Of a DNA stretch of 64,000 nt, positions 28,494 to 61,308 are shown one piece after another (position 1 is the first letter of the stretch; each line of letters opens with the position of its first letter). The notes beneath the pieces were generated by a model. That model was not told the DNA's origin. It was given only the letters and a program-made list of their open reading frames with translations, and did no database searches. The translations under genes were made by a program, and so were the position numbers. Source of the DNA: Eledone cirrhosa (Eukaryota); contig OZ024764.1 of NCBI GenBank assembly GCA_964016885.1, positions 22,816,001-22,880,000 on the forward strand. Reading direction: 5' to 3'.

Positions 28494-29273
28494 ATGTCGA
28501 AAAATATAGTAAAATCACCATTCCACTGTGATATCTCTGGTAAATCATTCTCTCGTAGTAATCAGCTAACTACTCACAAACGTATTCATACAGGAGAAGA
28601 GCCATTCCACTGTGATATCTGTGGTAAATCATTCTCTCAGAGTAATCACCTAACTACTCACAAACGTATTCATACAGGAGAGAGACCATATCACTGTGAT
28701 ATCTGTGGTAAAACGTTCTCTAAAAATAATAACCTAACTACTCACAAACGTATTCATACAGGAGAGAAACCATATCACTGTGACATCTGTGGTAAATCAT
28801 TCAGTCTGAGTAATACCTTAACTACTCACAAACGTATTCATACAGGAGAGAAACCATATCACTGTGATATCTGTGGTAAAACGTTCTCTCAAAATAATCA
28901 CCTAACTACTCACAAACGTATTCATACAGGAGAGAACCTATATCATTGTGATATCTGTGGTAAATCATTCACTTGTAGTAATAACCTAACTACTCACAAA
29001 CGTATTCATACAGGAGAGAAGACATATCACTGTGACATCTGTGGTAAATCATTCAGTCAGAGTAATACCTTAACTGGCCACAAACGTACTCATACGGGAG
29101 AGAAACCATATCACTGTGATAACTGTGGTAAATCATTTGCTGACAGAAGTTGCTTAGCTACCCACAAACGTACTCATACAGGAGAGAAGCCATATCACTG
29201 TGACATCTGTGGTAAATCATTCTCTCAAAGAGGTAACTTAACCAAGCATGTGCGTATTCATACAGAAGTTTAG
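28494..29273 (+). CDS. C2H2 zinc-finger protein ZNF-B (9 fingers, first lacks Cys2)
   Basis: [10 protein letters not shown] start shared with the paralogues. Tandem [15 protein letters not shown] repeats. No effector domain. Confidence 0.92.
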
Positions 29274-29744
29274 CTGTATCAATATCAAACTCATTACATA
29301 ATACTACAACAACAACAATTGTGTAGATCCATCATCCTTGCTAAAACTGGGGTCAACCTTGTAGGTTTTACCTAGGACAGGGATCATAAAACCAGGTTTC
29401 CATTTTTGAAGCAGTGTTTGAAGATTTTGTGTAAATTAAAGTTTTTCACATTAAACTTTGATTTATTATACTTTAACAGGTAAGATATATATTTGTATTT
29501 TTAGTAAAGGTTGGGAACTTCTGTAATTTAAACCTGCCAATAAAATGAAAACTTTTGTTGTTGCTAGTCAGACATTGGTATTAATTCTATTGTCCTGTAC
29601 ATTGTCTCAAATATCACAGATTAAACAGATTTTAACAATATCAACAGAAATCAATAACTTGTAAGCCTAATATCTAGCTTCCATTTTAACTATTTGATAT
29701 TGTTGTTCCCCTCCTGTCTCTTCAGGTCTTTTAGATTTCAACTT

Positions 29745-30445
29745 CTATCTACTGTACTATTCCATCACCAAGGCAACATTCATCTGGCTGGCAGCTTACA
29801 TCAACTACAGATCTCATCAGTGGTTCACAACAAGCTGTCTGAAAGAAACTTCCAGATATCTTCTATATCATAGCTATCAATCTCCTCCTCCTTATCATAT
29901 GTACCACTCTCACAGTCCCTCTAGATCTTATATTTAACAAGATCTTTTACTATCTCTACCCTTTTCTCTAGGTTGTCTTGTACCACTCTCACAGTCCCTA
30001 TAGATCTTATATTTAACGGGGAGATTCTTTACTGTCTCTACCCTTTTCTCTAGGTTGTCTTGTATCTCTTTTACAGTCCCTCTAGATCTTATATTTAACA
30101 GGGAGATCTTTTACTAGCCCTACCCTTTTCTCTAGGTTTTCTTTTACCTCTCTCACAATCCCTGTAGATCTTATATTTAACAGGGAGATCTTTTACTCTC
30201 GAACCCTTCTACAGATAGTCTTGTATATGTCATTCCCTCTAGATCTTACACCTCGTATCTAGTCTATGTTGAGTGGTATGTCTTTCTCCAGTAAAGGAGT
30301 TAATATTCCCAACCATCTGTCTATCCTGTTTTCTGATGAGAATGAAGTCAATCTAGTTTATCTCTTCACCTGATTGAAGTAACTAGATCAAGTAACTAGA
30401 TGGTTTCCTGTAAGTTAGTGTTGCAGTGTTTGTGTCACCATGTAA
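29745..30445 (-). mobile_element. RTE relic with 82-bp repeat (about 4 copies)
   Basis: Duplicate of 675-1530. Confidence 0.75.
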
Positions 30446-30538
30446 GGTTTATATCTATTAATATAGAGATGTAGTAAAGTTTTCACTGTTGTATCTCTAC
30501 TTTCTAAATATCTTAATAATGTTTCTCTACTATTTCAG

Positions 30539-30922
30539 AATATCACATGACCTTGACAGAAAAGAGTCCTTTAAAGACAACAGAAAGATGTTACATACAA
30601 GTGATATAAACTTGTTTAGTCTGTGGTGAATTATGGTGAAATATTTCTTCTGAATTGAGATAAATATTTTCCTTTTTCACTGTCTGGAATATTTACAAGA
30701 TGATTTTACATTCTGATTAAACTTTAGATATTTACAAAGGAGTTTTCAAAATATTTGGATATTGACAAAGATCACATTTGGTAAAAATTATGAACAATAG
30801 AAATATTTACATCAACATAGGAATATTTTCCAGAAGAGATGGGAAAATCATTATACCACTGTAATATTTGTGGTAAAGTATTCTCTCTTCTTTATATGTA
30901 GAACATCTAACTAAACACTTTA
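30539..30922 (+). pseudogene. Relic ZNF exon copy
   Basis: Duplicate of 1632-2015. Confidence 0.7.
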
Positions 30923-58744: not shown

Positions 58745-58956
58745 TTAACCCTTTAGTATATAAACTGGCCATATCTGGCCAGAATTCTCCCACATCTTTC
58801 TGTTCAAACTGGCCGTAACTGGTCACTTATACTTATGTTAAGGTATTGTTCTCAAATTAAGTAACATCAAAATCTCATCGATTTGATATTATGTGAGATA
58901 AAGCATTTACTGTGAAAATATAATAGTAAATATAGAGTAATGTGAATACTAAAGGG

Positions 58957-59489
58957 TTAATCTAATGTCACTAATAACTACTTTTATCAGTCAGTTTAAT
59001 CTAATGTCACTAATAACTACTTTTATCTGTCAGTATAATCTAATGTCACTAATAACTACTTTTATCAGTCAGTTTAATCTAATGTCACTAATAACTACTT
59101 TTATCAGTCAGCATAATCTAATGTCACTAATAACTACTTTTATCAGTCAGTATAATCTAATGTCACTAATAACTACTTTTATCAGTCAGTATAATCTAAT
59201 CTCACTAATAACTACTTTTATCTGTCAGTTTAATGTAATGTCACTAATAACTACTTTTATCAGTCAGTTTAATCTAATGTCACTAATAACTACTTTTATC
59301 AGTCAGTATAATCTAATCTCACTAATAACTACTTTTATTAGTCAGTTTAATATAATGTCACTAATAACTACTTTTATCAGTCAGTTTAATCTAATCTCAC
59401 TAATAACTACTTTTATCAGTCAGTTTAATCTAATGTCACTAATAACTACTTTTATCAGTCAGTTTAATCTAATGTCACTAATAACTAAC
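58957..59489. repeat. 39-bp tandem repeat, about 13.5 copies
   Basis: Same unit as at 26458. Confidence 0.95.
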
Positions 59490-60444
59490 CTATGTTAGTC
59501 AGCACATTCTTCACCTAAGAAGGCCTTAGTATTTATTACAGTCCATTTATCAATATAGAAATATTATATGAAATTTGTACTGATGTATTACAAGTTTCTA
59601 AGTATCTTATAATGTTCTTTTATTATTTCAGAATACCAGAGGACATTGGCATTAAAGAGCACGTTACATCAGTCATATCCTCAACATTAACCATTTCTAA
59701 TGAAAGACACTACCCATCATTTTCAAATAATTTTGAAAACACTCAACACTTTGAAGGGATTTAGTAATATAACTAAATTTCTCAGTATTAAGCTGCTATT
59801 TGGAACATAACTTTGCACAATCTCATGAAGTTACAATGGAAAGTTTTTAGATAAATATAAAGACTGGTATGAAAAGGATAAAACACTTTTATATCAGTTG
59901 TTTCATCAACACTATTATTTAAAGACTAAAGGAAGCTGTTATACAGAACAGATACAACCTTGTTTATATAAATCTATGGGAGAAATACTGTGAAATATTT
60001 CTTGTAAACTCAATAACCCTTCTATTCTTTGCTGTCTGGAATATGTAGAAGATACAAAATAAAGCTGAAGAAATTTACACATGATTTTGTAAGATCTTCA
60101 TATATTGACAAAGTTGATAGTTGATGGAACTACAGGAGTAGAAATATTTCCATTTTTACAGGAATAACTAATCAAATGAAAACTAGAAAAATTAGATTCT
60201 TCACTGTCTGGAATATAAGATGATTTTATATGTATATTAAACTTGAAGACATCAACAAAACAGTTTGTATCATCTTTAAATATAAAGAAAGACCAACTTG
60301 ATGGAAATATATCTGGAGGAATATGTTTTAGGAATAATATTATAAACATAAAGAAGAAAAATATCCATATATTGCGAGGAGAAAAATATTAAAACTGTGA
60401 ATTATGTGAGAAACTGAGGTGATTGATATCTTTTAGTAGGAGTT

Positions 60445-61308
60445 ATGTCGAAAAATATAGTAAAATCACCATTCCACTGTGATATCTGTGGTAAATCATT
60501 CTCTCGTAGTAATACCTTAGCTACCCACAAACGTACTCATACAGGAGAGAAGCCATATCCCTGTGACATCTATGTTAAATCATTCAGTCACCATAGTAAC
60601 TTAACTACTCACAAACGTATTCATACAGGAGAGAAGCCTTATAAGTGTGATATCTGTAACAAATCATTCAGTCACAGTAGTAGCGTCAGAGTTCACAAAC
60701 AAATTCATACAGGAGAGAAGACACATCACTGTGACATCTGTAGTAAATCATTCTCTTGCAGATATAGCCTAACTACTCACAAACATATTCATACAGGAGA
60801 GAAACCATATCAATGTGACATCTGTGGTAATTCATTCTCTCAGAGTAATAACCTAACTACTCACAAACATATTCATACAGGAGAGAAACCATATCACTGT
60901 GACATCTGTGGTAAATCATTCTCTCATAGTCATCACCTAACTACTCACAAACGTATTCATACAGGAGAGAAACCATATCATTGTGACATCTGTAGTAAAT
61001 CATTCTCTCATAGTAATCACCTAACTACTCACAAACGTATTCATACAGGAGAGAAGCCATATCATTGTGACATCTGTGGTAAATCATTTTCTCGTAGTCA
61101 CCTAACTACTCACAAACATATTCATACAGGAGAGAAGCCATATCACTGTGATATCTGTGATAAATCATTCTCTCAGCATAAAACCTTAACTACCCACAAA
61201 CGTACTCATACAGGAGAGAAGCCATCTCCCTGTGACATCTGTGGTAAATCATTCAGTCACCGTAGTAACTTAACTACCCACAAACGTACTCATACAGGAG
61301 TACTCTGA
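60445..61308 (+). CDS. C2H2 zinc-finger protein ZNF-D (10 fingers, second lacks Cys2, altered C-terminus)
   Basis: 287-aa ORF ending HTGVL* instead of HTEV*. Confidence 0.9.

What the first reader, a model, noticed from the sequence alone, without database searches (positions are those of the whole stretch)
28494..61308. Hypervariable finger arrays inside near-identical duplicated gene units
Seen: promoters, introns, UTRs and dead TEs of the units differ by only a few percent by eye, but the arrays are not colinear. Recognition helices are: ZNF-B RSNQ,QSNH,KNNN,LSNT,QNNH,CSNN,QSNT,DRSC,QRGN; ZNF-C RSNH,RSNT,TNNN,CGHH,DSSS,KNNS,CGHH,DSSS,HKSN,RNN,HKSN,QSNQ,QSGT; ZNF-D RSNT,HHSN,HSSS,CRYS,QSNN,HSHH,HSNH,RSH,QHKT,HRSN; ZNF-A ends HSNH,LRGN. 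The 84-bp scaffold is homogenised and variation falls on positions -1 to +6. Known: these positions contact DNA, PRDM9 and KRAB-ZNF arrays evolve this way, and octopus has a large clustered C2H2 expansion. Inference: the exon behaves as a coding minisatellite that shuffles fingers among paralogues and produces new binding specificities much faster than the flanks diverge, in proteins with no effector domain. An arms race against the local TEs is one possible driver.
Basis: partly seen in the sequence, partly recalled or inferred. Interest (0 to 1): 0.8.

Follow-up and report, generated by a model that had tools for sequence, protein, structure and literature searches.

The report
Zinc-finger genes sharing one finger library
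These are members of a cluster of at least 131 (likely about 250) near-identical zinc-finger genes, probably of an octopus relative, that rebuild their DNA-reading arrays from one shared, likely older stock of 84-base finger units, so different copies would read different DNA; what they bind is untested.

Summary
In detail: all helices are read correctly, flanks differ by about 3%, and the arrays are not colinear. The window lies in a tandem cluster of at least 4.6 Mb; I parsed 131 arrays with 102 distinct helix strings. The genes are finger-only, and both predicted introns are spliced at family level. Fingers are shared across genes: 48% have an identical copy in another family, and 22 of 80 families are block mosaics. 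Contact codons carry excess amino-acid diversity (omega about 2; 1.35 to 2.9 when given their own synonymous rate).

In recent duplicates the arrays mutate no faster than the flanks, with no excess at contact codons. Finger gain or loss (7 of 30 pairs) is no faster than in neighbouring non-coding minisatellites (9 of 16; 4 of 27). The flanks are recombination mosaics themselves, so 3% is not a clock. New arrays therefore come mainly from order-preserving reshuffling of an older library. A transposon arms race was not tested.

Known parts: coleoid C2H2 clusters, young mouse KZFP clusters, the PRDM9 minisatellite. This scan already noted the pattern elsewhere in this genome (e1-9557371).

The parts
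1..213 (+). End of ZNF-A array and stop (unit 90; 18 fingers, 510 aa when read with the DNA left of the window)
17920..18097 (+). Homologue of non-coding exon 1 and its donor, upstream of ZNF-B
   Evidence: blastn of the ZNF-C exon 1; splicing of this copy not shown
26459..26754 (+). Non-coding 39-bp minisatellite at the end of intron 1 (7.6 copies; 13.6 copies at 40969-41499 and at 58957-59487); used as neutral control
26899..28493 (+). ZNF-B exon-2 leader (acceptor AG 26897-26898) with a 777-bp insertion at 27507-28283
28494..29273 (+). ZNF-B ORF: 9-residue leader, 9 fingers (first lacks the second Cys), ends HTEV*
29480..30538 (+). 3'UTR intron of ZNF-B, starting about 206 nt after the stop; holds the 82-bp minisatellite (29900-30197)
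   Evidence: GT..AG joint in run X23, family level
37290..37388 (+). Non-coding exon 1 of ZNF-C (start approximate; no ATG in this stretch)
   Evidence: joint 37388->41644 GT..AG in X23; sequence
41644..41854 (+). ZNF-C exon-2 leader, short form (about 600 bp shorter than in D), with upstream ATGs
41855..42967 (+). ZNF-C ORF: 13 fingers, internal repeat of CGHH-DSSS, one 81-bp finger
43171..44150 (+). 3'UTR intron of ZNF-C with the 82-bp minisatellite (43591-43820)
44151..44600 (+). Exon 3 (end not determined): 63-75% like the exon-2 leader and first finger, likely a decayed older paralogue
53637..53826 (+). Exon-1 homologue upstream of ZNF-D
59632..60444 (+). ZNF-D exon-2 leader, long form
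60445..61308 (+). ZNF-D ORF: 10 fingers (second lacks a Cys; one 81-bp finger), ends HTGVL*; no 3'UTR donor found by pattern in this copy

Best explanation
The window is part of a multi-megabase tandem cluster of finger-only C2H2 genes whose arrays are different, largely order-preserving assemblies of one shared library of 84-bp fingers, likely rearranged by slippage within arrays plus unequal exchange or conversion between paralogues, with selection likely keeping the contact residues diverse. Steps: (1) Shown: whole units and blocks of units are duplicated. (2) Shown: fingers are then gained or lost at about one event per 1% of flank divergence, an ordinary minisatellite rate. (3) Inferred from mosaics and decay of linkage: finger blocks also move between genes, roughly in register. 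(4) Inferred: the finger types are older than the 3% flank divergence suggests, because the flanks are homogenised too. (5) Purifying selection on zinc ligands and core residues is shown; diversifying selection on -1/+2/+3/+6 is likely over the long term but not seen in recent changes. (6) Untested: the products would be sequence-specific DNA binders acting by occupancy or through an unknown partner, with transposons a plausible target.
For: Cluster: 246 candidates for the 3' flank; the 40 scored all lie on one contig at 19.4-23.9 Mb (19.2 Mb). 131 arrays parsed, 6-28 fingers, 102 distinct helix strings, 111 with an ORF through (nearly) the whole array. Of 1427 internal fingers, 47.7% have an identical and 74% a near-identical (1 nt or less) copy in another family, against a median of 6 nt to the nearest finger of their own array. 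22 of 80 families are tiled by blocks from two families that share no block; unit 85 is a clear case. One-codon-deleted fingers recur in 24 families. Flank r2 falls from 0.21 (<20 bp) to 0.05 (300-600 bp) at non-CpG SNPs; permutation p 0.002-0.032 in 4 of 4 segments. pN at contact codons is 0.47 against pS 0.18 at other codons (ratio 2.1-2.4, bootstrap lower bounds about 1.5). Codon model omega is 2.1 contact, 0.22 structural. Common alleles: 36 per 9.8 sites against 25 per 14.2 (p=0.003). Structural codons are depleted of change in recent pairs (9/8934 against 32/9716, p=0.0008). Both introns are spliced in X23.
Against: No excess of flank-swapping crossovers at the array: 1 of 70 units had discordant close 5' and 3' partners. 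Shared blocks (0.9% divergent, under a 2-nt-per-finger filter) are not clearly younger than the 2.5% flanks predict once the slower array rate is allowed for. Some mosaics could arise by differential deletion from longer ancestral arrays. The nearest-neighbour contrast is partly a numbers effect (mean distance 13.5 nt within, 14.5 nt between arrays). Synonymous diversity at contact codons is also high (0.40). With its own synonymous rate omega is 1.35 (p=0.31, 39 types) or 2.9 (p=7e-5, 83 types), and conversion violates the tree model (PMC5519329, passages). Long-leader units have a median of 13 upstream ATGs, so translation is not established. No binding data.
Confidence: 0.68

Rival explanations
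1. Near-neutral turnover. The cluster is an unstable tandem repeat; purifying selection keeps only the zinc-binding scaffold, the helix is unconstrained and escapes homogenisation, and the many different arrays are a by-product with no selected specificity.
For: Finger-number change (7 of 30 pairs at 1% or less) matches the 82-bp non-coding repeat (4 of 27, p=0.51) and is slower than the 39-bp one (9 of 16, p=0.049). Recent contact-codon change equals the synonymous rate. pS at contact codons is 0.40, and omega is 1.35 (not significant) in one fit. 20 of 131 ORFs are broken. The 3'UTR intron and upstream ATGs would lower protein output.
Against: Excess of common non-synonymous alleles at contact codons. 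Omega is above 1 in 3 of 4 fits. Helix positions +1/+4/+5 vary less (pN 0.25 against 0.47).
Confidence: 0.17
2. One reading: an ongoing arms race with local transposons drives rapid invention of new fingers, much faster than the flanks diverge, as in PRDM9.
For: Long-term contact-codon excess. Predicted octopus ZNF motifs are enriched in TE consensus sequences (PMC10547256, passages). Young TEs are present in the window.
Against: In the 30 closest comparisons only 1 non-synonymous contact change in 3668 sites. 48% of fingers are exact copies of fingers in other families. The share of amino-acid diversity at contact sites has a median of 0.39, against 0.67-0.68 for top-ranked bovid PRDM9 (PMC5519329, table passage; I did not check that the same positions were used).
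Confidence: 0.1
3. Part of the pattern is assembly error: uncollapsed haplotypes inflate the unit count, or arrays were mis-stitched.
For: Blocks repeat at fixed offsets (454, 866, 908, 1081 kb) at 0-0.4% divergence; units 10 and 11 are identical. No raw long reads were laid.
Against: Most pairs differ by about 3% with unique arrays. Near-identical copies have the same finger order. Duplicated blocks lie at several interleaved offsets. If the close pairs are alleles, the array-versus-flank comparison still holds.
Confidence: 0.05

Closest known systems
Coleoid cephalopod C2H2-ZNF expansions and clusters (PMC9068888, passages; PMC12513265, first of 7 parts and passages)
   Same: Large clustered, lineage-specific expansion of C2H2 genes.
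   Different: The parts I read count genes and analyse expression. PMC12513265 has no occurrence of 'conversion' or 'recombination' in its main text. A shared finger library, exchange rates and selection on contact codons were not in what I read; supplements not seen.
Young mouse Chr4 KZFP cluster (PMC12575710, passages)
   Same: About 5 Mb, grown by multi-gene segmental duplication through non-allelic recombination; many distinct -1/+2/+3/+6 fingerprint arrays.
   Different: No KRAB here; roughly one gene per 16 kb; targets unknown, whereas several mouse KZFPs bind ERVs by ChIP-seq.
PRDM9 zinc-finger minisatellite (PMC5519329, passages; PMC3890296, search listing only)
   Same: 84-bp coding minisatellite, finger turnover, diversity at DNA-contact residues.
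   Different: No PR/SET, KRAB or SSXRD; sharing is between genes more than within an array (84% within-array identity); lower share of diversity at contact sites (0.39).
Hemipteran ZF271-like/APEZ family (PMC6444547, passages) and zebrafish FiNZ-ZNFs (PMC10547256, passages)
   Same: ZF271-like genes are finger-only, tandemly clustered and turn over fast; FiNZ-ZNFs show positive selection on contact residues in some clades.
   Different: FiNZ-ZNFs have an N-terminal domain and shown TE repression; finger exchange among paralogues was not in the passages I read for either.

Membership tests
Tandem (Krueppel-type) C2H2 zinc-finger genes | C-x2-C-x12-H-x3-H fingers joined by TGEKP linkers in an open frame | tested here: met
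Coleoid clustered C2H2 expansion | Many paralogues in a multi-megabase tandem cluster | tested here: met
Coleoid clustered C2H2 expansion | Genome is a coleoid cephalopod | tested here: inconclusive
   Protein searches gave no cephalopod hit among those listed; 'octopod' rests on earlier scan notes and the 3.0-Gb genome
Coleoid clustered C2H2 expansion | Expression in nervous tissue | not testable with these tools
   Only contigs of a run of unrecorded kind and tissue
KRAB-ZNF (KZFP) | N-terminal KRAB domain | tested here: not met
   ORFs start 9 residues before finger 1; no KRAB among the 25 best Pfam families shown for B and C; spliced exon 1 has no ATG. Other first exons are not excluded.
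PRDM9 | PR/SET (with KRAB, SSXRD) upstream of the array | tested here: not met
PRDM9 | Near-identical fingers within one array, with most diversity at contact sites | tested here: not met
   84% within-array identity; share at contact sites 0.39
PRDM9-like coding minisatellite (works like) | Gain, loss and replacement of whole 84-bp units | tested here: met
   32 gain/loss events and 24 replaced fingers over 51 comparisons
PRDM9-like coding minisatellite (works like) | Positive selection at -1/+2/+3/+6 | tested here: inconclusive
   For: and one fit of 68. Against: and the other fit of 68
TE-repressing ZNFs | Binding to and silencing of TE families | not testable with these tools
   No specificity predictor or ChIP data

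The most novel reading that the evidence does not exclude
The cluster is a germline repertoire generator. About 250 effector-less genes recombine some 200 finger types in register to keep producing new DNA-reading proteins under diversifying selection, as an invertebrate counterpart of the KRAB-ZNF transposon surveillance system that works without KRAB. Its output would be throttled by a cluster-wide 3'UTR intron and upstream ORFs, and would differ strongly between individuals.
Probability: 0.22. Interest if true: 0.78.

Novelty: new variant of a known kind. Interest (0 to 1): 0.5.

Why it matters
How cephalopods came by thousands of C2H2 genes, and what those genes do, is open; PMC12513265 calls the TE arms race in coleoids an open question. 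This cluster shows a concrete way to diversify them: duplicate whole units, then re-deal an existing finger library. Because hundreds of arrays use a limited set of fingers, measuring a few dozen common fingers would predict targets for much of the cluster, which makes the TE-versus-neural question testable. It also warns that whole-protein trees of such genes are unreliable, because the arrays are mosaics.

Tried and rejected
An upstream coding exon: 41645-41767 is open and could have been spliced in frame, but the donor is not conserved, the X23 contig runs on to 41807, and a homologue search found nothing (weak evidence). Rejected.

The array as a crossover hotspot: not seen (the script stopped after printing these results; no pair was close at the 3' side only).

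Link to PRDM9: the SSXRD search of the genome gave nothing over the cut-off, so the fingers were not compared with the PRDM9 array of note e1-9559852.

Taxon by protein search: uninformative.

No RNA holder was listed on record; X23 is of unrecorded kind, and no DNA run was laid beside it as a control. Runs X1, X3 and X4 cover the fingers but hardly the flanks; not used as evidence.

The rare-versus-common allele Fisher test (p=7e-6) is biased by saturation at contact codons, so I rely on the per-site count instead. One search was a failed optimisation, replaced. The 2015 octopus genome paper (PMC4795812) is not held. No motif prediction or TE scan was done.
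Full report
Observation. ZNF-B, -C and -D are ORFs of 259, 370 and 287 aa that start [10 protein letters not shown]. Self-alignment shows repeated units. Flanks between B, C and D differ by 1.9-4.7%, while the longest matching run of internal fingers between any two of arrays A-D is 0-1.

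Context. The window lies on contig C25 of a 3.0-Gb genome. The 3' flank has 246-247 candidates; the 40 scored in each search all lie on C25 between 19.2 and 23.9 Mb. I read 1.26 Mb contiguously (71 arrays, median spacing 16.4 kb) and 60 targeted stretches chosen by flank similarity, giving 131 arrays, about half of the likely total. They have 6-28 fingers and 102 distinct helix strings; 111 have an ORF through (nearly) the whole array. Flank divergence medians are 3.1-3.4%. Blocks of units recur at offsets of 454, 866, 908 and 1081 kb at 0-0.4% divergence; some may be uncollapsed haplotypes. 'Octopod' rests on earlier scan notes; my protein searches did not name the taxon.

Gene structure. Contigs of run X23 (kind not on record; same coded organism as the best holders, another sample) join 37388 to 41644 and join the 3'UTR donor to the exon-3 acceptor, both GT..AG. 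This is family-level evidence: contigs merge paralogues, the second joint links B's donor to C's acceptor, and no DNA run was laid as a control. Exon 1 has no ATG. Among the 25 best Pfam families shown for B and C there is no KRAB or SET; the strong hits are zinc-finger models. The finger-only reading therefore holds for this isoform. The exon-2 acceptor is found in 126 of 131 units and the 3'UTR GT donor in 127; all 128 located donor sites lie 178 nt or more after the stop. In mammals that layout triggers nonsense-mediated decay (recalled; unknown for molluscs).

Shared library. Among 676 unique internal fingers, diversity is 0.46 at contact codons and 0.11 in the scaffold. Grouping units within 1.5% gives 80 families. 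47.7% of 1427 internal fingers have an identical copy in another family and 74% one within 1 nt; the nearest finger in their own array is a median 6 nt away. This is partly a numbers effect, since mean distances are 13.5 and 14.5 nt. 70 of 80 families share a block of 3 or more fingers with another, and 22 are tiled by blocks from two families that share none. Unit 85 joins six fingers of one family to a longer block of another. Order is mostly kept: 20 of 462 type pairs occur in both orders, and types prefer positions. Against this, deletion from longer ancestors can mimic mosaics, shared blocks are not clearly younger than their flanks, and only 1 of 70 units had discordant close 5' and 3' partners.

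The flanks recombine too. At 156 non-CpG SNPs r2 falls from 0.21 (<20 bp) to 0.05 (300-600 bp), and 59-79% of pairs beyond 20 bp show all four gametes. Distance-decay is significant in 4 of 4 segments (p 0.002-0.032). So exchange between paralogues is real across the unit, and 3% is not a safe age. Finger synonymous diversity of 0.18-0.25 points to a library several times older (inference).

Rates in recent duplicates. I took 79 pairs with both flanks within 1.5% and a spanning set of 51. At 0.5% or less: flanks 107/73,841, arrays 21/22,344, and 2 of 21 with a finger gain or loss. At 1% or less: 7 of 30 pairs (8 events), against copy-number change in 9 of 16 for the intronic 39-mer and 4 of 27 for the 82-mer (p=0.049 and 0.51). 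Over all 51: 32 gain/loss events; 24 matched fingers with 4 or more differences were set aside as replacements before point changes were counted, which lowers the array rate. Non-synonymous change was 18/5693 at contact codons and 9/8934 at structural codons, against 32/9716 synonymous (p=1 and p=0.0008). A few pairs in the 1-1.5% bin look like false neighbours and inflate the events. Of extra fingers in the closest pairs (1.16% or less), 13 were local copies, 6 had a match only in other families and 2 had neither.

Selection on the pool. pN at contact codons is 0.47 against pS 0.18 elsewhere (ratio 2.1-2.4), but pS at contact codons is 0.40. A codon model on 39 finger types gives omega 2.1 (LRT 19) with an all-site tree and 4.3 with a scaffold tree; structural 0.22-0.25. 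With class-specific synonymous rates omega is 1.35 (p=0.31, 39 types) or 2.9 (p=7e-5, 83 types). Counting each common allele once, which recombination does not inflate, gives 36 per 9.8 contact sites against 25 per 14.2 synonymous sites (p=0.003). Diversifying selection is likely but not proven; PMC5519329 (passages) warns that conversion breaks such tests. The share of amino-acid diversity at contact sites is 0.39 and within-array identity 84%, milder than top-ranked PRDM9.

Mechanism. Shown: unit and block duplication, whole-finger gain and loss at an ordinary minisatellite rate, recombination among paralogues, purifying selection on the fold, and splicing at family level. Inferred: in-register transfer of finger blocks between genes, an old library, and long-term diversifying selection. 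Untested: translation, binding and targets.

What is known. Coleoid C2H2 clusters (PMC9068888, passages; PMC12513265, part 1 of 7 and passages). TE-enriched predicted motifs for octopus ZNFs and selection in FiNZ-ZNFs (PMC10547256, passages). The young mouse KZFP cluster (PMC12575710, passages). Finger-only ZF271-like clusters (PMC6444547, passages). Five searches listed no paper whose title or abstract start deals with finger exchange among cephalopod paralogues; I read passages of six papers, no supplements, and the 2015 octopus genome paper is not held. The scan itself noted the same pattern on another piece of this genome (e1-9557371).

Verdict. Real, and a new variant of a known kind: a KZFP-like young cluster without an effector, with minisatellite arrays whose fingers are shared across genes. 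Interest 0.5.

Noticed in passing
window 29480-30538, 43171-44150, 418-1631: Cluster-wide intron in the 3'UTR, a median 206 nt after the stop (127 of 131 units keep the GT), spliced in X23: a layout that would trigger nonsense-mediated decay in mammals.
   Followed up: partly
window 59632-60444 and 41644-41854: Two leader forms (about 810 nt in 67 and about 210 nt in 39 of 126 units); a median of 13 upstream ATGs overall. How the long form is translated is unexplained.
   Followed up: partly
window 44151-44600: Exon 3 is 63-75% like the exon-2 leader and first finger: likely a decayed older paralogue reused as 3'UTR.
   Followed up: partly
window 8238-11522: A unit with exon 1, the 82-bp repeat and the exon-3 acceptor (11160) but no finger exon, apparently deleted.
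   Followed up: no
window 33534-35331 (-), also 4548-6301 and 47314-48395: Broken SPIN/GTF2IRD2-type hAT transposase carried in the units; one piece is 79% identical to a Trichuris suis protein, a possible horizontal transfer.
   Followed up: partly
window 27507-28283: Young 777-bp insertion in the ZNF-B leader; its end had 1169 candidates, the scored ones at 98-100% identity on many contigs. Ends look Helitron-like (recalled).
   Followed up: no
window 19930-22476 (+) and 23646-25836 (-): Reverse-transcriptase-like LINE ORF of 705 aa in intron 1 of ZNF-B, facing an inverted relative 65% alike; family assignment from recall.
   Followed up: no
G000:C25, units 21 and 24 (L168, L171): A subfamily with long runs of near-identical KNTKLTR fingers, far more homogenised within the array, PRDM9-style.
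   Followed up: no
G000:C25, about 19.2-19.6 and 21.0-22.0 Mb: Inverted blocks of units within a mostly head-to-tail cluster.
   Followed up: no
81-bp fingers, e.g. in ZNF-C and ZNF-D: One-codon deletions inside the helix (R-NN, R-SH) have spread to 24 of 80 families; whether such shortened fingers bind DNA is unknown.
   Followed up: partly
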